From: Bacteroidota bacterium | GTDB taxonomy: Bacteria > Bacteroidota > Bacteroidia > Bacteroidales > UBA4417 | Assembly: GCA_022711175.1 (NCBI GenBank) | Contig: JAKLFM010000006.1 | Location: forward strand, 8,720-72,719 | Direction of reading: 5' to 3' | Length of the DNA: 64,000 nucleotides | Shown: piece after piece, positions 334 through 13,648 of the stretch | Layout: each line of letters opens with the position of its first letter | How positions within the stretch are numbered: the stretch's first letter is position 1 | Notes under the pieces: model-generated | Databases searched by the model: none | What the model saw: the letters and a program-made list of their open reading frames with translations, nothing else | What the model was told of the DNA's origin: nothing | Made by a program: the position numbers and the translations under genes

Positions 334-344
334 GGTTGGGAATT

Positions 345-677
345 TTAATGGTAGTCTTTGATTTCTAAAATTTCGACGCCGTGTATTTCGAGCCAGATGT
401 ATTTACCGTTAGGATCTGTGGGAATCGGGTCTTCGTGGGGAGTGAATATCAGCCGGTAGGGTTGATCGAGATCACAGGCCCATTTTCCTTTGAGGTCGCC
501 GACCAGTTCGTGGTAATTGCCGGGCAAATCTTTAACATCATGCAGCGTATCGGCAGCATATAACTGAGTTAACCTAAGTTTAAACCTAACTGCCCTGTTT
601 TTGCCCATCATTTTAAGGCGTAACTTGTCATTGTTGGCCAGTTGCTCCAGTTCCTTATGCTTAAAAGTTATTTTCAC
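345..677 (-). CDS. higB: HigB toxin (RelE/ParE superfamily, plasmid-maintenance-system-killer type)
   Basis: 110 aa. The pattern F..K.L..L ... RL..L.....L.D....PGN..H.L.GDLKG.W...L...YRLIF is typical of HigB. The toxin-first order, with an HTH antitoxin immediately downstream, matches higBA. Confidence 0.8.
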   Translation of the reverse strand: MKITFKHKELEQLANNDKLRLKMMGKNRAVRFKLRLTQLYAADTLHDVKDLPGNYHELVGDLKGKWACDLDQPYRLIFTPHEDPIPTDPNGKYIWLEIHGVEILEIKDYH

Positions 678-686
678 TGCAAATAT

Positions 687-701
687 AGTTAAAAATTAAC
701 T
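687..701. promoter_or_regulatory. Perfect 6-3-6 palindrome AGTTAA-AAA-TTAACT, candidate higBA operator
   Basis: Read directly from the sequence: AGTTAAAAATTAACT at 687-701, 10 nt upstream of the higB start codon (677). An extra AGTTAA half-site sits at 715-720. TA operons are usually autoregulated through palindromes that overlap the promoter. Confidence 0.35.
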
Positions 702-742
702 TACAGGAAGTGTTAGTTAAAATAATTTAAGAAAGCTTGATT

Positions 743-1585
743 TTATTTAAGAGGAACTGCTACAAGCTTTTTTCGGTAGACTTCATCCAATGTCTGGCCT
801 TTATCATCTTTCCAGGTATCCCAGCCATTGTTGTTTGATCCTAAACAGTAAACGCTTGCACTACTTGGACTTGTAAAAACCATATCGATATTTAGAATCC
901 ATTTATCATCGTCCTGAATAGCAAATTCTTTCAATCTCCTTTCTCTTTCTTTTGGCCATGTGAATGAAGGAACTGTTTTCTGGGAAAGAATACTTCCTTT
1001 TAAAACAGTAAATCCATTATCATCATAAAAGCCTTTCGCCTGGCATGACTTGCTTTTGATGTAGAACAGATGTTTGTTTATGTGAACAGGAACATCAAAA
1101 ATGGGACAACCCACAAAGGAAGTGAGCAACCTTACATCTTCAAAAAATTCTTCGGTACTGCTCCGCTGGTGCTCAGGAAGATTAGGAGCTTTGGGAATTT
1201 GCTTGTTTTCCGAAATGTTGTAACGTTTGGTGGTTTGGGCGACCGCAACGGCCATGTGTTCGAGATACTGAACATCGGCTTTGGTCATGGCGCCGTCCTT
1301 GCTGATGAATACCAGGGCTTTTTGCCAGAATGTCTTTTTATAATCATGATCTTTGATGCGCTCGGCAAAGTTTTCAGTTTCTCCAATATAGGCTTTGGGT
1401 TGCTGATACTCATCTTCGCCAAGGAGCAGGTAAAAAGCCGGTGATTTCAGTTCATCCCTTTTATTGATTATATCAAGCGATGAGCGGGGGATGAGCATGA
1501 GGCTGCATATTTTATTGCTGATAAAGATATTTTGAACACCTTGTGGATGGCCGTCGAAAAGGTAGGTGGTGATTGTTTTGCCCAT
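743..1585 (-). CDS. GIY-YIG-like N-terminal domain plus DUF4357 C-terminal domain protein
   Basis: 280 aa. The N-terminus has FYLLLGE...AYIGETENFAERIKDH (GIY-YIG-like beta-hairpin and helix). The C-terminus has FTSPSSASVYCLGSNNNGWDTWK, which resembles DUF4357. This architecture is commonly seen beside R-M loci. Confidence 0.7.
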   Translation of the reverse strand: MGKTITTYLFDGHPQGVQNIFISNKICSLMLIPRSSLDIINKRDELKSPAFYLLLGEDEYQQPKAYIGETENFAERIKDHDYKKTFWQKALVFISKDGAMTKADVQYLEHMAVAVAQTTKRYNISENKQIPKAPNLPEHQRSSTEEFFEDVRLLTSFVGCPIFDVPVHINKHLFYIKSKSCQAKGFYDDNGFTVLKGSILSQKTVPSFTWPKERERRLKEFAIQDDDKWILNIDMVFTSPSSASVYCLGSNNNGWDTWKDDKGQTLDEVYRKKLVAVPLK

Positions 1586-1591
1586 GATTAG

Positions 1592-1726
1592 TTATATATC
1601 GAAGTACACATTCAGGAACCCTTCAGGTAATTTTAGCTTAGACACTATGTCCTTTATTATGTCCTTGGAATAGTTTATCATCATGTCCTTCATGGACAAT
1701 ATGACCATGAGATTGACCATGAGCAT
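1592..1726 (-). CDS. Candidate small ORF, Met-rich, no recognisable family (44 aa from ATG 1726; the ORF track gives 87 aa from 1855)
   Basis: The frame is open across both repeat copies. The ATG at 1726-1724 is preceded by AAGGAGGT, with 7 nt between the motif and the ATG. The stop lies 6 nt before the GIY-YIG start. Product: MLMVNLMVILSMKDMMINYSKDIIKDIVSKLKLPEGFLNVYFDI. The composition is low-complexity and SD motifs are weak predictors in Bacteroidota, so confidence is low. Confidence 0.2.
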   Translation of the reverse strand: MLMVNLMVILSMKDMMINYSKDIIKDIVSKLKLPEGFLNVYFDI

Positions 1727-1787
1727 CCTTTTAACCTCCTTTTTAACCTTCTTCATGGACACTATGACCATGAGAATGTCCATGAGC
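1688..1787. repeat. Two-copy imperfect direct repeat with 37-nt cores at 1688-1724 and 1751-1787 and a 63-nt period
   Basis: On the minus strand the cores read GCTCATGGACATTCTCATGGTCATAGTGTCCATGAAG and GCTCATGGTCAATCTCATGGTCATATTGTCCATGAAG, with 3 mismatches in 37. There are seven CATG tetramers between 1682 and 1790. The repeat lies in the 205-nt spacer between the deaminase-fusion stop and the GIY-YIG start. Confidence 0.8.
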
Positions 1788-1790
1788 TTC

Positions 1791-3296
1791 TTATTTGCTT
1801 TCCTTAGAAACATATCTAAAATCATGAGAAGTACTTGGTTTACCATTATCACCAATCAGTCCTAGCATTTTTAATTTTTTTAGCTGGTTTGAGGCTTTCT
1901 TTCTTTCAAACCCAAAATTATCCTCATATTCCTTTCTTGAAATTTCACCACGAGCTTTCACAAAATCAAGCCCTGCAAGTTCTTCATCATTAAGTTGGGA
2001 AAGAACCTCGGTATTATCGAGATTACGAACAGCTTCAGCAGAACGTGGAAAGGTAACAATGAGATCAGGTTCGTCATAAGTTATTATTGGCAGGGGCAAT
2101 TTATACTTGTCCCTCATCTCACGATAGGTATCCATTCCAAATTCAGCTTCCTCCATGAGCCCCATGCGGTTAAAAATCAAAGTCAGTTTTTTGTTCCTGC
2201 TGTATGACTTAGCAGTAAACTTTTGAAGTTTCTCAAGCGTATTGGGGTAAACGGGCAGACCAGGGCTTTTTATAATAATCATATCAGGGTAAATTTCAAG
2301 TTGAATTTTAGCCCCATCAATGGAATAATCTCTGTGAACGATAGCATTTACAATAGCTTCCCGAATAACTACCGGAGGAAAGAAAAGAACCTTTTCCCTG
2401 GTAAATGAGGAACGGTCAAAACTTTCCGGAATTACCTTTTTAACCCATGCTTCAACCTGGTCGGGAATTAAAACCAAGGCATCATCAAAACTTTGAACGT
2501 CACTTTCACCAGTACCATAATAAACCTTAGCTTTAACCGATGCCTGTGGGTATTTATTACGAGGGCTTTTGCCAAAAAGCAGGACAGCATTGCCTGTCGG
2601 GACAAGTGCCTGAGTAGCCTTATTGGTTTCCAGTAAGTCGCTTTCTAATAACTCCTGATAGAACCCGGGAGATTTATACTCCAATTTAAGCCCTGTCTTT
2701 TGCATGTACAATTGAAGGGCTTCATCTGATAAACTATCAATATTGGTATTCAGGGCTTGCTGGTACAAAAGCCCGGGGGCTTTTGCTTCTTCTTCAATTC
2801 TATGGTTTCGTTTCCATAATGCCCAATCATCAAAAGCTTTGTTGATTCGTTTTATCTCTTTTACAAGGTCAGAATCAAATTGTTCAACCTCAATCTTATT
2901 TTTTTGAAGGAAGGATACTCCACCGAAATCATCTTTTAAAGCCAAATCTTCTTCTCCGAACCATACTTTAGCAATCCGGGCATTAACAATACGTTCGGAG
3001 CAGGGAATTTTAGGTGCGTTTCTTGAACCGGGCGAACAGGGTTCAAGTGTTGCAAATAGCCAACACCCATCCAATGGGCGATGCCTGTTTTTCTTATCCA
3101 TTAGCGTATATTCAGCGTGATCCCCTTCACGAAGCTCACCTCTGTGGGCAATTTCAACCTCTCCATCGGGAAAAACCAACACAGCACCAACCATAGGGCT
3201 GGGATGGTCGTCACGTGCCTCTTGCTTAGATTTTTTCATGGCCTCAATTGCCATTGACATATATTCACGAGGTTCTTTTCGATTATCAGCTGCCAT
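1791..3296 (-). CDS. Zinc-dependent deaminase domain (RibD/dCMP-deaminase type) fused to a Schlafen/AlbA_2-family C-terminal module (HATPase_c_4 plus winged HTH)
   Basis: 501 aa. The zinc-deaminase signature is H60-A61-E62 (nt 3119-3111, checked as CAC GCT GAA) and P86-C87...C99 (nt 3041-3000). The context is VGAVLVFPDGEV..HRG before the signature and ARIAKVWFGEED after it. Further downstream are NAVLLFGKSPRNKYPQA, FPPVVIREAIVNAIVHRDY (HATPase_c_4 hallmark, about aa 305-395) and a C-terminal wHTH-like segment (GEISRKEYEDNFGFERKKASNQLKKLKMLGLI). Confidence 0.85.
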   Translation of the reverse strand: MAADNRKEPREYMSMAIEAMKKSKQEARDDHPSPMVGAVLVFPDGEVEIAHRGELREGDHAEYTLMDKKNRHRPLDGCWLFATLEPCSPGSRNAPKIPCSERIVNARIAKVWFGEEDLALKDDFGGVSFLQKNKIEVEQFDSDLVKEIKRINKAFDDWALWKRNHRIEEEAKAPGLLYQQALNTNIDSLSDEALQLYMQKTGLKLEYKSPGFYQELLESDLLETNKATQALVPTGNAVLLFGKSPRNKYPQASVKAKVYYGTGESDVQSFDDALVLIPDQVEAWVKKVIPESFDRSSFTREKVLFFPPVVIREAIVNAIVHRDYSIDGAKIQLEIYPDMIIIKSPGLPVYPNTLEKLQKFTAKSYSRNKKLTLIFNRMGLMEEAEFGMDTYREMRDKYKLPLPIITYDEPDLIVTFPRSAEAVRNLDNTEVLSQLNDEELAGLDFVKARGEISRKEYEDNFGFERKKASNQLKKLKMLGLIGDNGKPSTSHDFRYVSKESK

Positions 3297-3322
3297 AAAT
3301 TGATTTTTTAAAAATTATTTAC

Positions 3323-5086
3323 TTAATCTGCTGCCCATCTATATTCAAATGCTTCCTGACCCAAAGAAAGACCCGTTTTCAATCTTTGATTTACTTCAGT
3401 TCCACCCGGCATCATTGGCAACATTTGAAAATAGTTCCGAATTGCAAAATTTATCCCTGTTAAACAAGTTTTTGCCTTAATCCAATTTTGTGGACTAAAA
3501 ACTTTATTTGCAGGTTGTGTTTCATTCGCAGCTGCTTCCAAAGCCATATTCAAACTACTTCCTGCAATTTTTACAATATCAGTAACAAGATTGTTTGAAA
3601 CTGCTTGTTTAAGACACATACTTGGCGAAGGAACTCTATCAGACAAATTATTTACAATGGAAAAACACATAGAAACTGCATATAGCTGGTGATAAGGAGC
3701 ATATGCTTTCATTGCAAGTAAAGTTTGATTTAAGCCGAGTGGATTATCATTTGACCAAGATTTCCATACTTCTTTCATCCAAATGTTTAAGGCTTGAACG
3801 TCCTCCGGTTTATAATCACGTTTAAAAAGAATTTCAAAATATTTATCGAATATTTTGGTTTCACCATAAGAAATGTTCGGTCTTTGAGAATGCCAGGCTA
3901 TTAAGTATTTTCCAAAATCGGATAAATCTATAATAAAGTTCTTGTCTTTTGAAGCAGGTGAAATTTCTCCTCTTTTTGTGATGAAATATCCATTCGGATA
4001 TTTTAATTCAAATGCTCGTTTTAAATTTAGTATTCTTTTATCATTGCTTCTCAGATCTCTCGGTTTGACTGCACTCTGTGAATTTGTATTTATGCTAATA
4101 CGATCTGCCCGGTCACGCTGTGGTATTTCGTAAAACCTGCACATTACGTATGTCTCATCGAGCTTTTTAACGGTTTCACTACAATTCAAAATCGTATTTA
4201 AAGATTGGCATCCATTGACAACACTTAAACCTTTCATTGATACTTTGGAGTCTGCCAATACCAATTTATTACAAATAGCCGTAATGCCATTATGGAAAAA
4301 GAAAAAGTCTTTATGTTTATCACTGAGGATTGTATTTCGGATTCCTTTATTTACAGCATTACTTGTTCCCAAACTTTGGCGGACATTTTTTTGAAAGAGT
4401 GAACCATCCTTAATACCTGGAAATTTAATGCATTCCTTTAGAGGAACTGCTGCAATAATAACTTGAGTGCCAGCTATTGTTTCTTTTAAATATTTACAAT
4501 CTATCAAATTAAGATCGTAATTTATCAATGGATTATCAACTTCTAATGCTATATCATATCTTCTCTTTATTTCATCATCATCAATAACAGTAATCGTTGC
4601 ATCAAAATCATCTTTTTCAGATATTTCTGATAATTGTTTCTGAAAAGTCTCAAGATCATTCAATGCAGCAGGAGTTAATTTTGATGTTGTTATTAGTTCA
4701 AAATTAATCTCATAATCCTCATCCAAAGCATTTGCCACCTCAGAGAGTTTTCTCTGTAATTTTGAATTTGACACATTTTGCAATCTGACCAAATCGCGAA
4801 TCTGCATCCAGGCAGATAAAACTTCCCTTAGAGGCGTAGCATCTACAAATTCTCCCGAATAGAATTTACCCTGAATGATATTTATAATTGATTTATCATT
4901 ATCGATAACAATTGCATCAATTTGCTTATCATTTGCCCCATCAATAATATCATCTTTAGTTTCATTCATATCTCGTTTAAGGATGGAACGAAGATACCAG
5001 GCAACAAATCTTTGACCATCATTCGGAAAGTATTGTTGAAAAAAATCAGCTTTGATCTGTTCTTTAATTGTATCGTAAATTGTCAT
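3323..5086 (-). CDS. AIPR (abortive infection phage resistance) family protein
   Basis: 587 aa. The N-terminus FFQQYFPNDGQRFVAWYLRSIL...DDIIDGANDKQIDAIVID and the central FFFHNGITAICN...VVNGCQSLNTI match my recollection of AIPR hallmarks. The gene lies 10 nt downstream of res and 26 nt upstream of the deaminase fusion. Confidence 0.75.
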   Translation of the reverse strand: MTIYDTIKEQIKADFFQQYFPNDGQRFVAWYLRSILKRDMNETKDDIIDGANDKQIDAIVIDNDKSIINIIQGKFYSGEFVDATPLREVLSAWMQIRDLVRLQNVSNSKLQRKLSEVANALDEDYEINFELITTSKLTPAALNDLETFQKQLSEISEKDDFDATITVIDDDEIKRRYDIALEVDNPLINYDLNLIDCKYLKETIAGTQVIIAAVPLKECIKFPGIKDGSLFQKNVRQSLGTSNAVNKGIRNTILSDKHKDFFFFHNGITAICNKLVLADSKVSMKGLSVVNGCQSLNTILNCSETVKKLDETYVMCRFYEIPQRDRADRISINTNSQSAVKPRDLRSNDKRILNLKRAFELKYPNGYFITKRGEISPASKDKNFIIDLSDFGKYLIAWHSQRPNISYGETKIFDKYFEILFKRDYKPEDVQALNIWMKEVWKSWSNDNPLGLNQTLLAMKAYAPYHQLYAVSMCFSIVNNLSDRVPSPSMCLKQAVSNNLVTDIVKIAGSSLNMALEAAANETQPANKVFSPQNWIKAKTCLTGINFAIRNYFQMLPMMPGGTEVNQRLKTGLSLGQEAFEYRWAAD

Positions 5087-5096
5087 AATAATGAAT

Positions 5097-7736
5097 TTAT
5101 AGTTGCTTTATCAATTCTTTTGCTTTTTCAACTGTGTATGCTCCATCAATCGCTTTTTTGTCAAAAATCATGAAGTAGAAATAGCCATTACCGGCTAATT
5201 CTGCCCATTTGTTGCCCAGTCTGCATTTGGCTGTGCTATCTGAATTATCACGATCGTCGCCTTTGGTTTCGATAACGACAATTTTGCCTGTTTTGGTTAC
5301 TGCAATGAAATCAGGAAAGTGATTAGACTTGAAGCCGTTGATTGAAAAACCTTTGCCGCGGCCAAGGTTACGATGCCAGAAAGCGATATTGGGCAATGAA
5401 GAAATATCGGTAATAACCGATGCTTCGAAATTGTTCATGGTGCCTTCGCGCTCGTATAATGAATGGCTTATTGACGGGCCTACAGGACCCGGGACAATCA
5501 TATCGGGGAAGCTCCATGCTGGTTGTGTAACAACCTTACCAATTTTGATAAGATCATTGAACCGACCTTCAGCAAAGTTGTCGGCGTGTAACCTTATTTT
5601 GGACTTTATCCGATCAGAATAGCTCCATTTGCGAATTAGCATATCCTGTAGTTGCTCGGAGTTGAGCTGGTGGAGGATGCGTTCGATAAATGCCCTGATT
5701 TCCGGGTCTGGGATTGGATACATGTCGCCAATTAGCTGGACGAGCTGGTGTGAGATGTCTTTAATCTGTCCTTCTTTTGGTTTTGCCAGTATCAATTCAA
5801 CAATAGGGTCTTTGACCTGCATGTCTTCAATTTTAGTAAACCGGGGGGTGTATTCATCTTTTTTGACCTGCTCAATATCAACCTTGTATAAATCGGAAGA
5901 AACCTGTTCGAAATCAATCTTAGTGTCTTCGTTGCTGAGCTTAAAGTTGCCAAGCAATGATTCCTGGTTGAGGAGAATTTTATCGGTACCAAAGATGTCA
6001 CTCTGTAATACCTCTAAGAAAAATTGAGGGAGTTTAATAGCGGAGGCAACTGATTTGTTGGCCTCGACGATTGAATAGCGTTTTACTTTATCACCCATTT
6101 CCTGAAAAATATTTTCGTCAACAGGTTGCTGACTTTGTTTTTCAATGATACTTTCCATTTCACGGTTCTGCGTTTCGGCCATGTCCTGAATCTGGTCGAC
6201 TACCGAATTTGTAATCACTTGGGATTGCTGAACACCCGGAGTGAATGAAATTCGGGAGATTTCGATTTCATCTTCGGCTGCCTGAGTTTTTTCCTGCTCA
6301 GGGAACAGGAAAGCTTCGAGGGGTTTAACCGGTGCCTGCCTGATCTCCGTTTCGGACATCGTATCTTTTTGCCGGTAATCTTTTTCGCTGAAACCAGAAG
6401 CCAGCAACCCCTCCACGATATTCTGAAGCGTTTCGTTGAATTTAGCCGAAGCCGTGAGGACATATGAAACATTGAGCAAGGGAGCCGTGTGTTTTGTTAC
6501 ATAAGGCTGCCTTAATACCCTGCCCAGGATTTGTTCTACATCAACCGCCGATGATTTATCGGCCAGTGATGCAAGGATGTAGGCAAAGGGACAGTCCCAA
6601 CCTTCTTTCAGAGCATTGATGGTGATGATGTACCTTACGGGACAGTCTTTTGAACCGAGTGTGATTCCTTTCAACTCGTCCTTTTCGGCTGTTTTGATTT
6701 TAATTTGTTCTTCAGGAATGCCGACTTTTAATAGCTGTTCCTTCAGTTTATCGAAGGTAGTGTTATCGTCGCCGGTGCGGGGCTGAGCCTGGAAGAGTAC
6801 GATAGGCCGGATATATTTACCTCCGCTGCGCTCTTCTTCTTCGGCCAACAATTCAAGTTTGTGCTGCAAATGAAGGGCGCTGTTGATTACCTCTGTTTTA
6901 TCGTGATGATTGTAAACGATGACCGGAAGTTTCACCATGTGTTCTTTTTTGAGCTCAATGGCAGGCACCAGGCTCACGATGTTGCTGTTATCGCGAGGGG
7001 TGGCTGTGAGGTCCAGAACAAATGACGGATTGAGGGCATTGAGCATTTCGACACTTAGTTCGCTTTCGGCATTGTGACTTTCGTCGACCACGAGCACGGG
7101 CGTAAGACTGCGTATAACGTTGATAAGTGCAGTATCGTCAATATCATCGAGCAGCAATGATTTGTCTTTAAGCTGGCTTGCGAATGGCGCAAGCTGACCG
7201 TTTTCCTGGTACACTTTACGGTCCTCTTTGTTGCGTGCCCGAAGACTGGAAAAGCTCATCACCACAATGGTAAGCTGTTCTTTTACAACCGTTGGATTGA
7301 AATTGGAACCTTGCAACAGGTCTTTCTTTTCGTAAACTTCGACCCGGTTGTTGAAGAGGCTGTTGAGCTTTTGCCTGTATGGGTGATCGGGATTGCTGAG
7401 GTTGTTTACCGTTTGATCGAGCAGGTTGCTCCAGGGAACCAGCCAGACCACAAAACGCGGGACATCGGGCGAATAAGCGGTAAAAATGGAGTGCAACGCA
7501 TTACAGGCAATAAATGTTTTGCCACCGGCGGTTGGTACCTTAATGCATACATGCGGAGCATTGGGTATGGAGTTTTTATAGGGTTGCATCCCGCTACCTG
7601 AAATTGGATTGTAGGGGCCTATCCGATCTTCCCAGTACTTATTAAAAGCTGTATTGGTGGCTTTGTACTTCTGAATATAATCGAGGTACAATTCCAGGTC
7701 TTTTATGACTTTTTGCTGATAAGTTTTTAGTTCCAT
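5097..7736 (-). CDS. res: Type III restriction enzyme Res subunit (SF2 helicase plus C-terminal PD-(D/E)xK nuclease)
   Basis: 879 aa. It has Walker A VPTAGGKTF, motif II VVDESHN and motif VI-like QILGRVLRQP. The C-terminus has PDFIAV...VVIETKGDD, a PD...ExK nuclease core. It lies directly downstream of mod; the mod stop is at 7738-7740 and the res ATG at 7736-7734. Confidence 0.85.
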   Translation of the reverse strand: MELKTYQQKVIKDLELYLDYIQKYKATNTAFNKYWEDRIGPYNPISGSGMQPYKNSIPNAPHVCIKVPTAGGKTFIACNALHSIFTAYSPDVPRFVVWLVPWSNLLDQTVNNLSNPDHPYRQKLNSLFNNRVEVYEKKDLLQGSNFNPTVVKEQLTIVVMSFSSLRARNKEDRKVYQENGQLAPFASQLKDKSLLLDDIDDTALINVIRSLTPVLVVDESHNAESELSVEMLNALNPSFVLDLTATPRDNSNIVSLVPAIELKKEHMVKLPVIVYNHHDKTEVINSALHLQHKLELLAEEEERSGGKYIRPIVLFQAQPRTGDDNTTFDKLKEQLLKVGIPEEQIKIKTAEKDELKGITLGSKDCPVRYIITINALKEGWDCPFAYILASLADKSSAVDVEQILGRVLRQPYVTKHTAPLLNVSYVLTASAKFNETLQNIVEGLLASGFSEKDYRQKDTMSETEIRQAPVKPLEAFLFPEQEKTQAAEDEIEISRISFTPGVQQSQVITNSVVDQIQDMAETQNREMESIIEKQSQQPVDENIFQEMGDKVKRYSIVEANKSVASAIKLPQFFLEVLQSDIFGTDKILLNQESLLGNFKLSNEDTKIDFEQVSSDLYKVDIEQVKKDEYTPRFTKIEDMQVKDPIVELILAKPKEGQIKDISHQLVQLIGDMYPIPDPEIRAFIERILHQLNSEQLQDMLIRKWSYSDRIKSKIRLHADNFAEGRFNDLIKIGKVVTQPAWSFPDMIVPGPVGPSISHSLYEREGTMNNFEASVITDISSLPNIAFWHRNLGRGKGFSINGFKSNHFPDFIAVTKTGKIVVIETKGDDRDNSDSTAKCRLGNKWAELAGNGYFYFMIFDKKAIDGAYTVEKAKELIKQL

Positions 7737-7737
7737 A

Positions 7738-9378
7738 TTAGAACTGTGTTATATCTCGAGGAATTTTCTTGAAGATGATGTTTTTGAGTGTCATAAACTC
7801 TTTTGGAAGCAGGCAATTGTCGGCATAGATGACATACTGCGCTGCCGGTGTTTTGATTGTGGCCAATGAATCAAAATCAAGGGTGGTAAGCGAATGCTTT
7901 TCGTAAATGAAGTAGTAGGCCGAATCTTCCTTTTTGCCCAGGAAATATGGGTTATCGGCAGCCGGATCGGGTGGAGTGTAAGGCGTACGTGTTTCGCTGT
8001 ACCAAATGTATTCTCGTATTTTACCGGTTTCCACTTCTTCGTTCAGGAACTCGTTGTTTTCGCCTGTAAAAAGTGGTTTGCCAAGCTCGTAATAATCGAA
8101 ACCTCCGCCAGTACCTTCTTTGTCAGAATAGCCATTAATTACACGTTTTACCCGTTCGGCAGTAATGGTTTCGGCATAATCTTCCATTTCGACCAGGATA
8201 AATTTGCGGTTGCCGCCATCCTGTTTGTTGAGGTTTAAAACGGCATGAGCGGTAGTGCCTGAACCAGCGAAACTATCAATCACAATATCATTGTCTTTTG
8301 TAAACTGACCAATGAGTGAATGAATCAATGAGACAGGTTTTGCATATGAAAAAATAACATCTCCAAAAATATTCTTTAATAATCTTGTTCCTTCTTCATT
8401 TTTAGCAGTTTTTATGAAATGAGCATCCAATGTATCAATTTCCTGGTTTTGTTCAAAAATCCATGTTGATAAAGGCTTCCTGTCTCTTTTGGCGTCTTCA
8501 GGGAATGATTTAAGGCGAGGAGTTGTTAATTTTTTATCAGGAAAGTCCTCTGGAAATATTACTAGATTCTCGTCGACCTTTTGTTTCATTGTTGGTGGAT
8601 AAAACCCCCACACTCTTCCTTTTGCTGGCCAATATCCAGTTCCGGTTTTAGGATTTTTGAGTTCATACCATTGATTAGGTCGCATTTCTTTAGTCATACC
8701 AACAGTTAAAGGCATGCTCGCATAGAATCGGCCATCTCCATCAGACAAATTGTATTTTTCCATGTCTCTTTCTTCACCTCTAACAAAAACAGTATCGGGT
8801 GATTTTGAGTACGCAACAATATATTCGTGGTCTTTTGAAATCCAAGAATTGGCCATGCTTGAACTTACCCTTCTCCTCCAAACGAAATTGGCAAAGAATC
8901 CTTTAAATCCAAAGATTTCATCAAGAATCAGTTTCAAATATGTTAACTCGAAATCATCAATTGAAATCAAAAGAATTCCATCTTTATCCAAAAGTTTATG
9001 TAGAAGTTTTAACCGTGGATAAATCATGCATAGCCATTTATCATGCCGACTAAGATCTTCTCCCTCCTTACCTACAACTGAGTATAGCCATTTTTTTATT
9101 TTCGGATCATTTACATTATCGTTATAGGCCCAGTTTTCGTTGCCGGTATTGTACGGAGGATCGATGTAGATGCATTTGATTTTGCCTTCATACTCAGGCA
9201 GCAGGCTTTTTAGGGCTTCGAGGTTATCGCCGTGGATAATTTTATTACCGCTGCCTGTTGATTGAGGTTGTTCTCTATTATCGGCAGTATAACCGTATTG
9301 GTGTTCGAGGACGCGGTAAGGAACATCCTGGTGGTGGTTTATTACTTTTTCCTTACCGATCCAATTGAGTGTGGGCAT
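7738..9378 (-). CDS. mod: Type III R-M Mod subunit (beta-class N6-adenine/N4-cytosine DNA methyltransferase)
   Basis: 546 aa. The catalytic motif IV DPPY lies at nt 9162-9151 (checked). The AdoMet motif I, DSFAGSGTTAHAV, lies about 300 aa downstream, which is the IV-TRD-I order typical of type III Mod. The gene is coupled to res. Confidence 0.85.
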   Translation of the reverse strand: MPTLNWIGKEKVINHHQDVPYRVLEHQYGYTADNREQPQSTGSGNKIIHGDNLEALKSLLPEYEGKIKCIYIDPPYNTGNENWAYNDNVNDPKIKKWLYSVVGKEGEDLSRHDKWLCMIYPRLKLLHKLLDKDGILLISIDDFELTYLKLILDEIFGFKGFFANFVWRRRVSSSMANSWISKDHEYIVAYSKSPDTVFVRGEERDMEKYNLSDGDGRFYASMPLTVGMTKEMRPNQWYELKNPKTGTGYWPAKGRVWGFYPPTMKQKVDENLVIFPEDFPDKKLTTPRLKSFPEDAKRDRKPLSTWIFEQNQEIDTLDAHFIKTAKNEEGTRLLKNIFGDVIFSYAKPVSLIHSLIGQFTKDNDIVIDSFAGSGTTAHAVLNLNKQDGGNRKFILVEMEDYAETITAERVKRVINGYSDKEGTGGGFDYYELGKPLFTGENNEFLNEEVETGKIREYIWYSETRTPYTPPDPAADNPYFLGKKEDSAYYFIYEKHSLTTLDFDSLATIKTPAAQYVIYADNCLLPKEFMTLKNIIFKKIPRDITQF

Positions 9379-9629
9379 GCGAAGAAAAACAGATTTAGAT
9401 AAGAGTATAAGCTTAGAATAAATTAACAGTTCACATGCAAGTCAACAGATATGCACGGGCATGTCAAATATACTTAATAATTGAATATTGCAAGAGAGAC
9501 TTTCTCAATATCGTTATTTCATTGGACTTGGTTTGACCACACTTCGGTTTCGCTTAGTTTAAATGCATCCGTGCCACTGTGCAGAGGCAAAGGAAGGATT
9601 TTATAGAAAGGAGATTGTGTAAAGCCTTA

Positions 9630-11885
9630 CTAAATTTTAGTATAGCAACCATATTGCGGCTGGGATAAATAACGGCCATTAAGTTCTTTCAAAAGGCTAT
9701 CAACTGTCCGGACTGAAAGATTGAACGACTTGCCTAATTCCAATGCTTCGGCACGTTTGAAGTTAGCGGGCAGGGCGTAGAAGAACCTGCGTTTGTTGTC
9801 GCCGTTTTTAAAGACAGCAGTCTCGTTCTGTTTTGGCAGGTTGTGAAACATCAGCAGGCTGTGGTGCAGATAGAGGTCAGCCAGGGAAAGAGATGTTTCA
9901 AAATCAATGTCAGTGCAGGTTGCCTGTTTTGACATATCTCCATTTTCGACTTTGCGAAGTGCGGTGAAAATCATGGCTATGCGGTAGAGGATGGAACCAA
10001 GCCTTTTTACAATACTGGCGGCTTCGTCGTGGTTGAAGGTGACAACCTGGTACAGCCAATTGTCGAAAACGGCATTGAGGCGATCCCATTGGGCACGGGA
10101 AAGTTCAACAATGGTGGGGTACTGCTGCAGAAAACGTGAAATGTCGAAAGTTTGCTGCGAGAGAGCTGTAAAGTGATCGGTGAGGTTGATGTTGTTAGCA
10201 TAAGGCGAAACATCGCGCCAGTGTTGCTCAACTTTGAATGCATAAAATATAAACCGGCTAAACAGACCATCTTCAGCAGAGTTGATGAGGCCGGTAACCT
10301 GGCTGGGTGTACCTGAAAGCGCTACCGAAAGCCGGGGTTCGTTTACCTCAATGTACTCATTGTTGGTTTTCTTTGAGCTTGAAACACGCTCGTGGTGGAA
10401 TGCTTTTCGCAGCAAGTCGGAATAGCCGCCCCACTCTTGTTTGAGGACATTGCCCATGGTGTCGGCTTCGGTTTCACATATTATGCCCTCGCCATCGTTC
10501 TGTTCGAGATGAGTGAGAATTTTAGCATAACTTGTATTGGCGGGAATGTAAAGTACCCTGAAAGGAGGTGCTTCGGGCGGGTCCTCTAAAGGTTCATCTT
10601 TTTTGCGGGAGCGCTCACGGGCTTTGTATTGGTTCAATTCAGCATCATAGCGTTGTTTAGCCTCCTGACTGTCGCGGATCATGATCTCGTGGTGCTTGTC
10701 GGCCAGCATTTTGGCAAACTTCATGGCTCCTTTGCCGCTGGCAGCGGGAGCAATCACAAAGGCGAAAAGGTTAGGATAAGTTGTCTGCTGGGCATAAATG
10801 CCCCTGACATTGGGAAGGCAACCACTCAGAATTGACAATGCACCTGTAAGGAAAACATCGCGTTCGCGGGGATCAGCAAAAGCACCTGCCCCGGATTGCA
10901 ATAGTAAAGGGAGATTACTATAAACGGTGGCAGGGATCAAAGGTGAAGACTTCAGATAGTCTTCCTCGTCATTAGTGACAGTCTGGGAGAGGGGAGTTTG
11001 CGACTTTGCAGAGTTTGCAAACTTTGAAAATTCTACTGAATGGTTTGTATAAGCGCTACAGACAGAAGCTCTTATTTCCTTTTCAGCCAGGTCGAAATTT
11101 TGCTGGCAAAAGTCCAAAGTATCGCTTTCAGGGAGGCCTGCCCGGTTGCAATTAGAGGCAAGCAGATAAATATAATTATTACGGTTTCCATCGATGTAGG
11201 TTTCTTTTTGGTTCGTAAACTGAATTTGTTGTTCGAAAATGAAGAGGGAGTTCAGGTTTTCAGGCTCCTTGACATGAGTGAGTGTTGCAGAAGGTGTCTC
11301 AGGGTGCTTTTCTGACTCAAAAAATTCTGAAGCAGGCAGTTGAACCATGAACTTCTCGTTGTAGATGTTTTTATACATAGCCGGATCGTCACTCACAAAG
11401 CAAAGCCGGGTTATGTCCTTGCATTTGGGGTCACATGGTATGCCAAGTGATTGTTCATAGTAATCCTGTATCTGGCGATAGGCCGTATTGTGATGCACAG
11501 CAGTAGTATTGACCTCGACAAAAACCTTCAGGCCATTGCCACTGGGACTGCGAAAGCATCCGAAAGTGTACGGGATTTTGGAAATGCCTTCAAATGCTTC
11601 GTCCAACTGCCCGGGTGAGAGCTTGTCGAAATCAAGATGGACATATCCGCTATAGTTCTTCAGCAGATGTGCTTTGCGACCACCTTCGTAAGTTCCCGAT
11701 GGAGTGAATGCCGGAAGTTGCTTTTTGAGTTGATCGGCTTTATCGGAATCGCCCGAAGCTAAGATTGTGCGGAGGTGTTCGATTTCGGCTTTGTATTTGC
11801 CGTTACGGATGTCGTTCAGGATCAGGATAAGGGACCTGTTTTCAACCGGTTGGTTGAATCCTGAGAAAATGGTTGCTGTAGCCAT
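9630..11885 (-). CDS. Island replication protein: VirE_N/BT4734-like primase-type N-terminal domain plus DUF3987 P-loop helicase-like domain
   Basis: 751 aa. The N-terminus has LPAFTPSGTYEGGRKAHLLKNYSGYVHLDFDKL...GLKVFV (VirE N-terminal type). The central Walker A is FVIAPAASGKGAMKF. This is a typical neighbour of HTH_17 and integrase genes in Bacteroidota integrative elements. Confidence 0.75.
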   Translation of the reverse strand: MATATIFSGFNQPVENRSLILILNDIRNGKYKAEIEHLRTILASGDSDKADQLKKQLPAFTPSGTYEGGRKAHLLKNYSGYVHLDFDKLSPGQLDEAFEGISKIPYTFGCFRSPSGNGLKVFVEVNTTAVHHNTAYRQIQDYYEQSLGIPCDPKCKDITRLCFVSDDPAMYKNIYNEKFMVQLPASEFFESEKHPETPSATLTHVKEPENLNSLFIFEQQIQFTNQKETYIDGNRNNYIYLLASNCNRAGLPESDTLDFCQQNFDLAEKEIRASVCSAYTNHSVEFSKFANSAKSQTPLSQTVTNDEEDYLKSSPLIPATVYSNLPLLLQSGAGAFADPRERDVFLTGALSILSGCLPNVRGIYAQQTTYPNLFAFVIAPAASGKGAMKFAKMLADKHHEIMIRDSQEAKQRYDAELNQYKARERSRKKDEPLEDPPEAPPFRVLYIPANTSYAKILTHLEQNDGEGIICETEADTMGNVLKQEWGGYSDLLRKAFHHERVSSSKKTNNEYIEVNEPRLSVALSGTPSQVTGLINSAEDGLFSRFIFYAFKVEQHWRDVSPYANNINLTDHFTALSQQTFDISRFLQQYPTIVELSRAQWDRLNAVFDNWLYQVVTFNHDEAASIVKRLGSILYRIAMIFTALRKVENGDMSKQATCTDIDFETSLSLADLYLHHSLLMFHNLPKQNETAVFKNGDNKRRFFYALPANFKRAEALELGKSFNLSVRTVDSLLKELNGRYLSQPQYGCYTKI

Positions 11886-11888
11886 GAA

Positions 11889-12167
11889 TCAGGATTTAGC
11901 CGGTTTGTGGTGCTTATCGAGTAATGCAAGTATATCAGACAAGCGGTAATACACTTTAATGCCTACCTGTGAGTAAGCAATGATTCCTTCATCGCGCCAG
12001 GCTTGGGCTGTGCGCTTGCAGATATTCATGATTTGAATGAACTCCTGGTTGTCGAAAAAGACCTGGTCAGGATCGGTGCGCTGTTTCTTAGCGAGGATCT
12101 CCTCGAGGCGTTTAAGTCTCTCGGCCACCTTTTCCAGTGGTTCACGGCAGGTTTTACAATGTTCCAT
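11889..12167 (-). CDS. HTH_17 (excisionase/MerR-like) DNA-binding protein
   Basis: 92 aa. The C-terminal half IQIMNICKRTAQAWRDEGIIAYSQVGIKVYYRLSDILALL fits the HTH_17 pattern. The gene lies 3 nt upstream of the primase-helicase gene. Confidence 0.6.
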   Translation of the reverse strand: MEHCKTCREPLEKVAERLKRLEEILAKKQRTDPDQVFFDNQEFIQIMNICKRTAQAWRDEGIIAYSQVGIKVYYRLSDILALLDKHHKPAKS

Positions 12168-12169
12168 AC

Positions 12170-12472
12170 CTATCGCCTCCTTCCCCTGGTTAAATTCTCT
12201 GAAACCTGCTTTTCGATTTCTTCGGTGGTATCCTGGCGGTTACGCTGCAACCACTCATCGAGTTCAATACGTTTGAAATACAGCTTTTTGCCCTGGGGGC
12301 AGAAATGCGGAATCTGACGGGTTGAGGTCAGCTTGTAGAGGTGGGACGGGCTTACATCCAGATAGGAGCATGCTTCGTTGAAGTTAAGAACCGTTTTTTG
12401 CAACAGGTTCTGCTCATCCAGTTTTGTTGCGATCTCGGAGAGCTTGTTTAAGATCATTTCTTCGTGTGACAT
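12170..12472 (-). CDS. HTH_17 excisionase-family DNA-binding protein
   Basis: 100 aa. The segment FNEACSYLDVSPSHLYKLTSTRQIPHFCPQGKKLYFKRIELDEWL is the classic excisionase-type HTH_17 pattern. Confidence 0.65.
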   Translation of the reverse strand: MSHEEMILNKLSEIATKLDEQNLLQKTVLNFNEACSYLDVSPSHLYKLTSTRQIPHFCPQGKKLYFKRIELDEWLQRNRQDTTEEIEKQVSENLTRGRRR

Positions 12473-12574
12473 CTTTTTGATTATTAAATGATGCCGCGAA
12501 AGTCATAAACAGCTGATCCATAAAGGTTAAGGGGTTAAGCCCTTACTCAGATAACTGAATAATCTTAATGTTTT

Positions 12575-13642
12575 TTATTTCACTTGGTTGAAGATTCTGT
12601 CAATGGTAGCCTTTTCTTTAGGCTCTAACTTATTCTTTGAACTGCTGGCTGAAAGGTTGTTTGCCGTGATAGGATTATCATTTATAGAGAAGAAGATTTT
12701 TGATTTCTCGATATTTGAAAGGGAAAGGTTGCTGAAATAGGGCTGTAGCTTATCGATACAATATCGAAAGTGTTTTGTTTCACAGCCAATGTGAATTTTG
12801 GTACAGCCAGGAATAAGGCTCTTTGATGTCAATACTTTCAGCAAATCTTCAGCAGTGCATAGGTCTTCGTTTACTAATACAATCTGAAAGCAAAGCTGGG
12901 TAACAATATACGTTAGCTTTTCAGGATCATCTTTGAAGCCGAACCAAATTCTATCCTGATCTTTAATGGTTATATGTCCTCCCTCTTTATGATTTTCAGT
13001 TAAAATAACTGGTTTTAACTGGATCAGGTTTGAGATGGATTCTTCGAGATCCAGTAGATAGAAGTCTTCAAGAGTCGTGGTTTTGTCAAGACTATCTTTG
13101 AAATGTTCCTGAATACTGAAATAGAGCCGGATTAGGCTATGTTTTAGATGAAATAGTGCGAAATGTACAATATCACTTTGTTCATCTGGAGGGGTTGAAT
13201 AATCACGGTCCTTCAATTCAATACCTGTTTGTTTGGCAAGTACCCGGATATTTGTGAGTGTCTGGTTAACATTATATTGGACGTCGATAATGTCGGACCA
13301 GTTACCAGCCTGGTAAAGGAATGCATTGTAGAACCGGAGGGTTTCGGCAGTAATAAGTAAGTTATAAAAGTGAGTTACTGCATTATAGTATTTGGGCAAC
13401 TCAATATCAAAACGGAGTGGTTGGAGAGGATTCGGGCTTTTGGGTTCAAGAACTAACACTTTCTGCTGTATGGGGAAATCTGTCAGCAGGTAAGAAACCT
13501 GCCCGAATATGTCGGATAATGTTGACAGAGGAATTGCCTTTGCGTTCCTGACAATCTCAGTAAAGCGCCTGTTATTACTTATATCAACTTTCCAGGGTTT
13601 AAGTGTACCATGGAGAATATTATCCAGTATGATTATTTCCAT
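12575..13642 (-). CDS. Hypothetical protein, no family recognised
   Basis: 355-aa uninterrupted ORF lying 6 nt downstream of the integrase gene on the same strand. I could identify no catalytic or DNA-binding motif. I called it as a CDS from its length and its operon-like spacing only. Confidence 0.55.
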   Translation of the reverse strand: MEIIILDNILHGTLKPWKVDISNNRRFTEIVRNAKAIPLSTLSDIFGQVSYLLTDFPIQQKVLVLEPKSPNPLQPLRFDIELPKYYNAVTHFYNLLITAETLRFYNAFLYQAGNWSDIIDVQYNVNQTLTNIRVLAKQTGIELKDRDYSTPPDEQSDIVHFALFHLKHSLIRLYFSIQEHFKDSLDKTTTLEDFYLLDLEESISNLIQLKPVILTENHKEGGHITIKDQDRIWFGFKDDPEKLTYIVTQLCFQIVLVNEDLCTAEDLLKVLTSKSLIPGCTKIHIGCETKHFRYCIDKLQPYFSNLSLSNIEKSKIFFSINDNPITANNLSASSSKNKLEPKEKATIDRIFNQVK

Positions 13643-13648
13643 ACACGT

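What the first reader, a model, noticed from the sequence alone, without database searches (positions are those of the whole stretch)
1791..9378. Type III R-M, AIPR and the deaminase fusion are packed as one co-directional operon with a mosaic base composition
**Seen**
- mod, res, AIPR and the deaminase fusion follow each other on the minus strand with gaps of 1, 10 and 26 nt. There is no room for internal promoters or terminators, and the only long upstream spacer is 9379-9629.
- Hand counts of single 60-nt lines show strong compositional heterogeneity inside this one transcription unit:
  - res line 6961-7020: 36/60 G+C
  - res line 5701-5760: 32/60 G+C
  - AIPR line 4501-4560: 15/60 G+C
  - AIPR line 4681-4740: 19/60 G+C
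  - deaminase line 2821-2880: 20/60 G+C

**Inference**
- AIPR and the deaminase fusion were appended to a pre-existing R-M module from a different, more AT-rich source.
- They may act as a second abortive layer that is transcriptionally slaved to the R-M system.
- Alternatively, AIPR and the deaminase fusion may form a two-gene system in their own right.
Basis: partly seen in the sequence, partly recalled or inferred. Interest (0 to 1): 0.65.

Follow-up and report, generated by a model that had tools for sequence, protein, structure and literature searches.

The report
Restriction operon with two swapped-in backup effectors
A type III restriction-modification operon on a mobile defence island carries two unrelated add-on genes, an AIPR protein and a deaminase fusion, which arrived together by recombination but are not partners. 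The deaminase gene brings its own unreported array of 9-bp DNA boxes.

Summary
Four minus-strand genes (mod, res, AIPR, deaminase fusion) are separated by 1, 10 and 26 nt, and all five hand GC counts are exact. AIPR is the most AT-rich stretch of the 64-kb window.

The mosaic is real. AIPR and most of the deaminase gene (about 1950-5150) are 92-95% identical in DNA to related islands. res, mod and the DUF3987 gene upstream are only 67-73% identical. The identity step falls at the res/AIPR junction.

AIPR and the deaminase fusion are not a two-gene system:
- AIPR lies next to a deaminase homologue in 1 of 77 genomic loci, and that locus is the same island type.
- The near-identical AIPR also occurs as mod-res-AIPR-Fic, without the deaminase.

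Each gene is an independent cassette that recurs inside methylation-based defence operons. The deaminase fusion sits between hsdR and hsdM, between pglX and pglZ, or after res.

The fusion has a RibD/dCMP-type zinc deaminase where related defence proteins carry a Schlafen RNase, followed by the same HATPase_c_4 and winged-helix (wHTH) domains.

One new feature: the deaminase gene is followed by an array of 9-bp boxes (two direct, one inverted). The box sequence co-varies with the wHTH recognition helix.

Function is inferred, not shown.

The parts
9379..9629 (-). 251-nt spacer upstream of mod; the likely promoter region, with a Bacteroidetes-type -7 box TATATTTG at 9472-9465
   Evidence: the box lies 94 nt upstream of the mod start. 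No such box lies within 270 nt upstream of the res, AIPR or deaminase starts. This is a weak consensus match only. Relatives carry a 99-aa HTH gene here, which the window lacks.
7738..9378 (-). mod, the type III DNA methyltransferase (546 aa); its central part, about 8288-8907, is a swapped target-recognition domain
   Evidence: PF01555, and MTase_III at 7.7e-179; 8288-8907 does not align with L002, L008 or L078, while both flanks align at 71-75%.
5097..7736 (-). res, the type III restriction helicase-nuclease subunit (879 aa); a GC-richer, diverged allele
   Evidence: ResIII and REase_III; 73% DNA identity to every related res, while those are 80-99% identical to each other. GC is 0.446 here against 0.37-0.38 in the relatives.
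3323..5086 (-). AIPR / AbiU-like protein (587 aa), an independent cassette
   Evidence: PF10592 at 3.9e-36, AbiU at 4e-36; 94% DNA identity to L001 and L078; also found with Fic, or alone, in other contexts.
1791..3296 (-). Deaminase fusion (501 aa). Domains: RibD/dCMP-type zinc deaminase (aa 1-165, nt 3296-2802); degenerate Schlafen-like linker (aa 166-300); HATPase_c_4 (aa 328-416, nt 2315-2049); MarR-like winged helix (aa 436-496, nt 1991-1809)
   Evidence: H59, E61, C86 and C98 are invariant. The model has pLDDT 84. Fold matches are RibD/RibG for the N-terminus and 3lmm for the rest.
1636..1785 (-). Array of three units of 9-bp boxes (box, 3 nt, box, 3 nt, inverted box). Units are at 1785-1753, 1722-1690 and 1668-1636 (the third degenerate); the first two are 63 nt apart
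   Evidence: This architecture occurs nowhere else in the 64-kb window, and 101 of 107 instances in 1.30 Mb lie just 3' of a deaminase-fusion gene.
1950..5150 (.). Recombination patch: AIPR plus most of the deaminase gene, shared at 92-95% DNA identity with a lower-GC island lineage
   Evidence: Identity to L001 drops from about 0.92 to 0.73 between 4950 and 5550. The alignment ends at 1950, inside the winged-helix coding part.
9630..14881 (-). Backbone of the integrative element: DUF3987/BT4734 primase-like gene (9630-11885), two HTH_17 genes, DUF6617 and a tyrosine integrase (13649-14881)
345..1585 (-). Further island cargo downstream: PDC-S14 (DUF4357 with a weak sub-threshold GIY-YIG match, 743-1585) and a HigB-like toxin (345-677). 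An M78 peptidase gene and a Piwi (pAgo) gene follow beyond the left edge of the window
   Evidence: source contig L327.

Best explanation
**What it is.** A defence island on a Bacteroidota-type integrative element. A type III restriction-modification pair (mod, res) is followed, in one tightly packed co-directional string, by two unrelated and individually mobile add-on effector genes.
- The first is an AIPR/AbiU-like protein.
- The second is a RibD/dCMP-type zinc deaminase fused to a HATPase_c_4 ('minimal histidine kinase') domain and a winged helix (wHTH). This is the chassis of the bacterial Schlafen-HisKinase-HTH defence proteins, with a deaminase where the RNase would be.

**Shown here.**
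- Gene order, gaps and composition.
- AIPR plus most of the deaminase gene form a patch exchanged by recombination with a lower-GC relative of the same island.
- The slot after res is variable: AIPR, a caspase-domain protein, SIR2-HerA, or Fic after AIPR.
- The two genes do not travel as a pair.
- The deaminase fusion recurs inside type I, type III, BREX and related operons.
- The deaminase gene carries a 3' array of 9-bp boxes whose sequence tracks the wHTH recognition helix.

**Inferred.**
- The string is transcribed from one promoter in 9379-9629.
- Restriction is the first line of defence. AIPR and the deaminase act as back-up, abortive-type effectors expressed with it.
- Once triggered, the deaminase most likely deaminates deoxycytidine nucleotides (dCMP/dCTP). 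It is less likely to act on cytosines in nucleic acid.
- The wHTH binds the 9-bp boxes as double-stranded DNA.
For: - **Layout and identities:**
- **Composition:**
- **Recombination patch:**. AIPR is 94% and res 73% identical; the step lies between about 4950 and 5550.
- **Conserved junctions:**
- **Variable slot after res:**
- **No pairing of AIPR and the deaminase:** (1 of 77 loci; AIPR with Fic in at least 24 contigs).
- **Embedding of the deaminase fusion:**. In 21 of 66 informative loci it sits in a co-directional run with hsdR/M/S, mod/res, BREX, SNF2-PLD plus Eco57I methylase, or DUF1156/DUF499 genes. In 15 of these it is immediately adjacent to such a gene.
- **Domains:**
- **Precedent:** Schlafen-HisK-wHTH proteins embedded in BREX loci of at least 1017 taxa (PMC12839542). 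The HisKinase-HTH fusion is the second most frequent bacterial Schlafen architecture, at 19% (bioRxiv 10.1101/2025.07.24.666596). [quoted passage not shown]
- **Array:** for specificity; for box/helix co-variation; for conservation (boxes 91% identical, spacers 38-49%).
- **Single promoter:** a -7 box only upstream of mod, and no terminator signal above chance.
Against: - There are no transcript data. Promoters inside coding sequence cannot be excluded, and the promoter evidence is one 8-nt consensus match at near-chance density.
- No phenotype or enzyme activity was tested. The substrate guess rests only on the nearest folds (RibD, then dCMP deaminase, then TadA), and TadA-like enzymes edit nucleic acids.
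- Box/helix co-variation could partly reflect physical linkage, because the wHTH coding region adjoins the array.
- Similar single triple-box units occur in more than 200 metagenomic and viral places without the gene. The motif type is therefore not exclusive to this protein.
- About two thirds of the deaminase loci show no recognised restriction-type neighbour. That count is a lower bound, since only neighbour clusters found in several loci were annotated.
Confidence: 0.6

Rival explanations
1. AIPR and the deaminase fusion are a dedicated two-gene system that happens to sit next to a restriction-modification system.
For: They are adjacent, 26 nt apart. They share the same high-identity patch in the window and in L001.
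Against: - AIPR is next to a deaminase homologue in only 1 of 77 loci, and that locus is the same island.
- In L002 the AIPR slot holds a caspase-domain gene. In L008 it holds SIR2-HerA and others.
- AIPR at 98% identity occurs as mod-res-AIPR-Fic in at least 24 contigs, and other AIPRs stand alone.
Confidence: 0.03
2. The deaminase fusion is mainly a DNA-binding regulator of the operon it sits in, not an immune effector. It would bind the 9-bp boxes to control read-through or a downstream promoter, and the deaminase-like domain would be a ligand sensor.
For: - It has a C-terminal MarR-like wHTH and a cognate box array.
- The array often lies just upstream of the next operon gene: hsdM, pglZ, or here PDC-S14.
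- Relatives of this chassis are routinely annotated as transcriptional regulators.
Against: - The catalytic H, E and two C residues are invariant in 59 diverse homologues, which argues for an active enzyme.
- Arrays are also present where the next gene is convergent: L016, L025, L037, L048.
- The chassis is described in the literature as carrying effectors.
Confidence: 0.15
3. The box array works as RNA. It would be a structured 3' UTR or an antitoxin-like RNA that holds the deaminase inactive, as AvcI does for AvcD or ToxI for ToxN.
For: - Each unit can fold into a hairpin with a 9-bp stem, and complementarity is kept while the sequence changes.
- The array lies on the same strand, directly after the stop codon.
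- Deaminase toxins with RNA antitoxins are known (own knowledge).
Against: - Mismatches show no G-U bias. Inner stems give G-U 26, A-C 48, other 61. The outer pairing is the same.
- The third, direct copy of the box and the 63-bp (six helical turns) phasing fit protein sites on duplex DNA better.
- There is no Rfam match.
Confidence: 0.15
4. The GC mosaic reflects intrinsic composition of the gene families rather than a transfer event. AIPR would be AT-rich everywhere.
For: AIPR is at GC 0.33-0.37 in every context examined, and the deaminase gene at 0.39-0.42.
Against: The DNA-identity step (94% against 73%) at the same junction is independent of composition and requires recombination. The GC step is large only in this window, because only here is res GC-rich.
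Confidence: 0.07

Closest known systems
Bacterial Schlafen-HisKinase-HTH proteins (AlbA_2 / HATPase_c_4 / wHTH), described as back-up effectors embedded in BREX and related loci (PMC12839542; bioRxiv 10.1101/2025.07.24.666596)
   Same: - The same C-terminal chassis: HATPase_c_4 and a wHTH, with a fold match to DIP2311 (3lmm).
- The same habit of sitting inside BREX and restriction operons.
   Different: - There is no Schlafen RNase. There is no Pfam SLFN_AlbA_2 hit and no Ex4(E/D)xK motif.
- A RibD/dCMP-type deaminase occupies the N-terminus instead.
- A cognate 3' box array was found here. I did not find one reported for the Schlafen proteins, and none follows the AlbA_2 gene in L008.
PrrC anticodon nuclease in the EcoprrI type Ic restriction operon (own knowledge)
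   Same: An abortive-type effector gene placed inside a restriction-modification operon and co-expressed with it. The hsdR-deaminase-hsdM-hsdS order seen in nine loci mirrors this.
   Different: The effector chemistry differs: a deaminase rather than a tRNA nuclease. Here the host is a type III system. No evidence was obtained that the R-M proteins silence the effector.
AIPR (PF10592) / AbiU genes in restriction-modification operons (PMC2292703; PMC5608340)
   Same: The AIPR gene matches the family well above threshold and sits in an R-M operon, as already described.
   Different: Nothing notable. This is an ordinary member, apart from its recent exchange by recombination.
Nucleotide-depleting deaminase defences: dCTP deaminase, and AvcD with AvcI (own knowledge)
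   Same: A zinc cytidine/dCMP-type deaminase fold in a defence island, with intact catalytic residues.
   Different: - There is no N-terminal P-loop kinase-like domain as in AvcD.
- The nearest fold is RibD, not dCMP deaminase.
- It is fused to HATPase_c_4 and a wHTH.
- No RNA antitoxin is evident.

Membership tests
Type III restriction-modification | Mod subunit: an N6/N4 DNA methyltransferase with type III architecture | tested here: met
   PF01555 at 124.5 bits; PADLOC MTase_III covers residues 1-545 of a 542-position profile, E = 7.7e-179.
Type III restriction-modification | Res subunit with a superfamily 2 helicase core | tested here: met
   ResIII at 57.2 bits; REase_III at E = 1.8e-74.
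Type III restriction-modification | C-terminal endonuclease motif in Res | not tested
   The motif was not examined.
Type III restriction-modification | mod directly upstream of res in one unit | tested here: met
   a 1-nt gap. The same junction occurs in L078.
Type III restriction-modification | Methylation and restriction activity | not testable with these tools
   Needs methylome sequencing and phage or plasmid restriction assays.
AIPR (PF10592) / AbiU | Match to the family profile above the curated threshold | tested here: met
   125.7 bits against a cut-off of 25. AbiU at E = 4.2e-36.
AIPR (PF10592) / AbiU | Abortive-infection phenotype | not testable with these tools
   Needs a phage challenge.
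Bacterial Schlafen-HisKinase-HTH defence proteins | HATPase_c_4 ('minimal histidine kinase') domain | tested here: met
   52.1 bits against a cut-off of 26; fold match to 3lmm, E = 1.3e-10.
Bacterial Schlafen-HisKinase-HTH defence proteins | C-terminal winged helix | tested here: met
   MarR-family match over residues 443-497; three helices followed by strands in residues 436-496 of the model, read here as a wHTH.
Bacterial Schlafen-HisKinase-HTH defence proteins | Schlafen RNase domain with the Ex4(E/D)xK motif | tested here: not met
   no SLFN_AlbA_2 hit at E <= 0.01; no motif in residues 150-310 of the window protein. The protein is therefore not a member, only built on the same chassis.
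Bacterial Schlafen-HisKinase-HTH defence proteins | Embedding in BREX or restriction loci | tested here: met
AvcD-type / dCTP deaminase defence | Zinc deaminase motifs H-A-E and P-C...C | tested here: met
   H59, A60, E61, P85, C86 and C98 are invariant.
AvcD-type / dCTP deaminase defence | N-terminal P-loop NTPase domain (AvcD) | tested here: not met
   no such domain. The deaminase is at the N-terminus.
AvcD-type / dCTP deaminase defence | Small-RNA antitoxin | tested here: inconclusive
   A structured array follows the gene, but it shows no wobble-pair signature and has no Rfam match.
AvcD-type / dCTP deaminase defence | Deamination of dCMP or dCTP | not testable with these tools
   Needs an enzyme assay or nucleotide-pool measurement.
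   1 of 77 loci. AIPR without the deaminase in at least 24 contigs.

The most novel reading that the evidence does not exclude
The deaminase-HATPase_c_4-wHTH gene and its 3' array of cognate 9-bp boxes form a self-contained, undescribed defence module that inserts into methylation-based defence operons. Its winged helix reads a box type that also occurs in phage genomes, for example between the SSB-like and Sak4-like genes of a widespread phage group. The protein could therefore sense phage DNA directly, with its own array acting as a docking or silencing site.
Probability: 0.15. Interest if true: 0.8.

Novelty: new variant of a known kind. Interest (0 to 1): 0.5.

Why it matters
Extra effectors embedded in restriction operons are a known theme, and AIPR is an ordinary example. 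On that score the finding as written is modest.

Three things are worth carrying forward.
- **A dated exchange.** The identity step gives a clean case of a cargo patch swapped between two versions of one defence island, with breakpoints at or close to gene borders.
- **An untested effector family.** The deaminase fusion belongs to a large family: about 2,100 proteins matched, and the 120 best-scoring hits keep the same roughly 500-residue length, 119 of them with both domains, in several bacterial phyla. I found no publication on it. It is an effector swap on the Schlafen-HisKinase-HTH chassis. It would add a deaminase to the set of back-up effectors attached to type I, type III and BREX systems.
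- **A testable handle.** The box array, with a recognition-helix-to-box correspondence, offers a direct way to ask what the sensor half of this chassis recognises. That is currently unknown even for the Schlafen versions.

Tried and rejected
- **Sigma-70 promoter and intrinsic terminator scans.** Counts were at chance (30 against 24.4; 9 against 8.7), and the promoter model does not suit Bacteroidota.
- **Full Bacteroidetes promoter pattern TTTG-N17-23-TANNTTTG.** 3 matches against 3.6 expected; uninformative.
- **Plasmid collection search with 12 kb.** Only a weak methylase match.
- **tRNA scan for an attachment site.** None found.
- **Rfam on 1-10 kb.** Nothing relevant.
- **orf87 (1592-1855) as a small gene.** Rejected. 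It overlaps the deaminase 3' end and the box array, its second codon positions are 10% GC, and its 'homologues' are array sequences in L002 and L067.
- **His-rich peptides read in frame after the stop codon.** These are a by-product of CATGGNCAT boxes.
- **RNA-hairpin reading of the array.** Tested with wobble-pair asymmetry, with no support.
- **Exclusivity of the box motif.** Rejected. Only 28 of 123 metagenome matches, and 0 of 126 viral matches, lie next to the deaminase family.
- **A single conserved partner gene for the deaminase.** None found. 132 unannotated run neighbours match 186 Pfam families, none in more than two proteins. A Piwi gene is nearby in 5 of 77 loci, and in the source contig beyond the window.
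- **HTH controller gene in the mod upstream spacer.** Present in L078 and absent here, with no remnant.


Full report
**1. Observation**

The gaps are 1, 10 and 26 nt, and a 251-nt spacer (9379-9629) lies upstream of mod.

Profile searches confirm the gene identities:
- mod: PF01555, and PADLOC MTase_III over its full length (7.7e-179).
- res: ResIII and REase_III.
- AIPR: PF10592 (125.7 bits) and AbiU.
- The last gene: PF00383 (cytidine/dCMP deaminase zinc region, residues 10-114) plus PF13749 HATPase_c_4 (residues 328-416).

All five hand GC counts are exact. The composition figures are:

| Gene | GC | GC3 | GC3 z-score vs 34 chromosomal ORFs |
|---|---|---|---|
| mod | 0.395 | 0.369 | -2.1 |
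| res | 0.446 | 0.493 | +0.3 |
| AIPR | 0.330 | 0.238 | -4.7 |
| deaminase | 0.406 | 0.337 | -2.8 |

GC and GC3 are; z-scores are. Codon-usage distance is z = 3.6 for AIPR. The AIPR region is the GC minimum of the whole window: 0.326 against a mean of 0.436 and an sd of 0.031. The step at the res/AIPR border is sharp.

**2. Context**

The string is cargo of a Bacteroidota-type integrative element:
- tyrosine integrase, 13649-14881;
- DUF6617;
- two HTH_17 genes;
- a DUF3987/BT4734 primase-like gene, 9630-11885.

Chromosomal sugar-nucleotide genes start at 15222.

The source contig is JAMIIG010000064.1 of assembly GCA_035913675.1 (L327). It shows what lies beyond the left edge of the window. 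After the deaminase gene come PDC-S14 (DUF4357), HigB, an M78 peptidase, a 685-aa Piwi protein and then an RHS toxin gene.

**3. Is it an operon?**

- The gaps leave no room for intergenic signals.
- A terminator scan finds nothing above chance.
- The only Bacteroidetes-type -7 box near a start codon is TATATTTG, 94 nt upstream of mod.
- The mod/res and res/AIPR junctions are conserved almost base for base in related islands.

This fits a single transcription unit but does not prove it. Promoters inside coding sequence remain possible.

**4. The mosaic is a recombination patch**

A scan of one genome per species returned 77 loci that encode a relative of the deaminase fusion. Three carry the same mod-res backbone: L001, L002 and L008.

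DNA comparison gives a clear result:
- Against L001, the window is 92-95% identical from 1950 to about 5100. This covers most of the deaminase gene and all of AIPR.
- Beyond that point, through res and mod, identity is 72-76%.
- Against L078, a mod-res-AIPR-Fic island, AIPR is 90-96% identical and res 65-76%.
- The window's res is 73% identical to every other res. Those are 80-99% identical to each other and all have GC 0.37-0.38. The window's res has GC 0.446.
- The DUF3987 gene is also only 67-70% identical.

So the backbone has diverged uniformly, in a GC-richer lineage. A 3.2-kb patch was exchanged recently with the AT-rich lineage.

The second breakpoint, near 1950, lies inside the winged-helix coding part of the deaminase gene. 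The mod centre (8288-8907) does not align with any relative. This is the usual sign of a swapped target-recognition domain, and it explains the low GC of mod.

**5. AIPR and the deaminase are not partners**

- Among the 77 loci, AIPR is found only in L001.
- In L002 the slot between res and the deaminase holds a caspase-domain gene.
- In L008 the slot holds SIR2, HerA, an unknown gene and a Schlafen/AlbA_2 gene.
- An AIPR 98% identical to the window's occurs in at least 24 contigs as DUF3987-HTH-mod-res-AIPR-Fic, with the same 10-nt res/AIPR gap and no deaminase.
- More distant AIPRs stand alone in other islands or near a prophage lysis module.
[quoted passage not shown] A Prevotella R-M operon with AIPR is also published (PMC5608340).

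**6. What the deaminase fusion is**

About 2,100 database proteins match. The 120 best-scoring hits are full-length or nearly so (85-100% of the query covered), and 119 of them keep both Pfam domains.

In an alignment of 59 members, H59, A60, E61, P85, C86 and C98 are invariant. The zinc site and the catalytic glutamate are therefore intact.

A profile search of solved structures puts the deaminase domain nearest RibD (2.6e-11), then TadA.

An AlphaFold model was built (pLDDT 84, pTM 0.81). By Foldseek:
- the N-terminal 155 residues match RibD/RibG (rmsd 2.5 A, 27-28% identity), then dCMP deaminases, then TadA;
- the remaining two thirds match DIP2311 (3lmm), an uncharacterised AlbA_2/HATPase_c_4/wHTH protein.

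This chassis is known. [quoted passage not shown] HisKinase-HTH fusions make up 19% of bacterial Schlafens, some of which defend against phages (bioRxiv 10.1101/2025.07.24.666596).

The window protein has no Schlafen profile match and no Ex4(E/D)xK motif. It is an effector swap on that chassis, not a Schlafen. Two literature searches for the deaminase together with HATPase_c_4 or AlbA_2 found nothing relevant.

**7. Where the deaminase fusion lives**

Neighbour clustering and Pfam annotation show it in these arrangements:
- between hsdR and hsdM-hsdS of type I systems (nine loci), or elsewhere in type I operons (five more loci);
- after type III res (L001, L002, L008 and the window);
- between pglX and pglZ of type 1 BREX (L012, L018);
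- after an SNF2-PLD helicase and an Eco57I-type methylase (L014, L021, L062);
- next to DUF1156/DUF499/helicase genes (L055, L068, L077).

By a strict rule (same strand, gaps of 300 nt or less), 21 of 66 informative loci qualify, and in 15 the gene is immediately adjacent to a restriction-type gene. These are lower bounds.

The remaining neighbours are very diverse: 186 Pfam families among 132 proteins, none in more than two. Many are defence-type, including SIR2, reverse transcriptase, caspase, HD-CE, GmrSD and type ISP.

A Piwi gene is close by in five loci and in the source contig.

**8. An unreported feature: the box array**

Directly after the deaminase stop codon lies an array. Each unit is a 9-bp box, 3 nt, the same box, 3 nt, then the inverted box. 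There are usually two units, 63 nt apart, starting about 17 nt after the stop.

In the window the units are at 1785-1753, 1722-1690 and 1668-1636, the third being degenerate.

The architecture is specific to this position:
- A sequence-agnostic detector for it finds 107 instances in 1.30 Mb. Of these, 101 lie within 450 nt 3' of a deaminase-fusion gene, and two of the other six are also in that region.
- A narrower pattern gives 88 of 90 hits in the first 250 nt after the stop, in 50 of 77 loci.

The outer five bases of the box differ between loci while the three copies stay alike. In loci with the same box class, boxes are 91% identical but the spacers only 38-49%. This points to selection on the boxes.

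The box class tracks the wHTH recognition helix (window residues 466-472, KKASNQL):

| Helix residues | Box |
|---|---|
| AQRH | CTTGGACA |
| AERH / AERQ | TCGCGACA |
| AERL | TCTCGCCA |
| ASRH / TSRH | CATAGACA |
| ANRH | CTTCGACA |
| AYRH / ASNQ | CATGGACA |

The correspondence is not strict: two AQRH proteins have the CATGGACA box. Among pairs matched for N-terminal identity, the odds ratio is about 11 (computed from the 0.50-0.60 identity stratum). Of the 25 alignment columns most informative about box class, 17 fall in residues 420-499.

Mismatches between arms show no G-U excess. There is no Rfam match. I therefore read the boxes as duplex-DNA sites for the wHTH rather than as an RNA hairpin. 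This is an inference, and linkage between the wHTH coding region and the array could contribute.

The motif type is not exclusive. Only 28 of 123 metagenome matches, and none of 126 viral matches, lie next to this gene family. The largest other context is an intergenic site between an SSB-like gene (ending ...DDLPF) and a Sak4/RecA-like gene in one phage group. There the unit is followed by a T-run.

**9. How it most likely works**

Shown: the layout, the patch exchange, the independence of the two cassettes, their recurrent embedding in methylation-based defence operons, an intact deaminase site, and the box array.

Inferred:
- one promoter upstream of mod drives all four genes;
- restriction acts first, and AIPR and the deaminase are back-up, abortive-type effectors expressed with it, following the PrrC/EcoprrI precedent and the Schlafen-in-BREX pattern;
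- the deaminase acts on deoxycytidine nucleotides (nearest folds are RibD and dCMP deaminase), although nucleic-acid editing is not excluded;
- the HATPase_c_4-wHTH half is the sensor or regulator and binds the boxes.

**10. Verdict**

As written, the finding is a fairly ordinary defence-island arrangement. The deaminase fusion as an effector-swapped relative of the Schlafen-HisKinase-HTH proteins, and its cognate box array, are the parts that deserve follow-up.

Noticed in passing
window 1636-1785 (minus strand): An array of three units of 9-bp boxes (box, 3 nt, box, 3 nt, inverted box) lies directly after the deaminase stop codon, with the first two units 63 nt apart. The same architecture follows the homologous gene in 50 of 77 loci. 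The box sequence co-varies with the winged-helix recognition helix.
   Followed up: yes
window 1592-1855 (minus strand): The 87-aa ORF overlapping the deaminase 3' end is almost certainly not a gene. It runs through the box array and has 10% GC at second codon positions. In-frame 'HGHSHGHSV' peptides after the stop codon are a by-product of CATGGNCAT boxes.
   Followed up: yes
L207-L326 (viral contigs), e.g. L219, L240, L252: Single triple-box units of the TGGACA class are common in viral contigs. They occur especially between an SSB-like gene (C-terminus DDLPF) and a Sak4/RecA-like gene of one phage group. There the unit is followed by a T-run, and a fourth half-site often overlaps the next start codon. 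Their function and any relation to the defence gene are unknown.
   Followed up: partly
window 8288-8907: The central part of mod does not align with any related mod, while both flanks do (71-75%). This is a swapped target-recognition domain, so this island probably methylates a different site from its relatives.
   Followed up: partly
window about 1950; deaminase residues about 450-501: A second recombination breakpoint lies inside the deaminase gene. The winged-helix tail and the array differ from L001. They resemble those of a distant homologue (L041, Omnitrophota MAG), which has the same box, including the GGTCA variant in the middle copy.
   Followed up: partly
L327 12589-16913 (source contig; window 1-1585 and beyond the left edge): Downstream of the deaminase gene the island carries PDC-S14 (DUF4357), HigB, an M78 peptidase and a 685-aa Piwi protein. 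In L001, L002, L008 and L010 a Piwi gene follows the deaminase more closely. PADLOC also matches the deaminase fusion's middle part to an Argonaute-associated protein profile (2e-16). A functional link to pAgo is possible but was not tested.
   Followed up: partly
window 9379-9629 versus L078 2124-2555: Relatives carry a 99-aa HTH_31 gene, a possible controller protein, between DUF3987 and mod. The window has no such gene and no remnant of it.
   Followed up: yes
L078 8788-8955; L004 5573-5738: There are possible deletion scars. The 55-aa ORF after AIPR in L078 begins MTETKRHK, like the deaminase N-terminus MTADKRK. L004 keeps a 167-nt remnant of the mod/res junction just upstream of its deaminase gene.
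   Followed up: no
L012, L018: The deaminase fusion is inserted between pglX and pglZ of complete type 1 BREX operons (brxA, brxB, brxC, pglX, deaminase, pglZ, brxL).
   Followed up: partly
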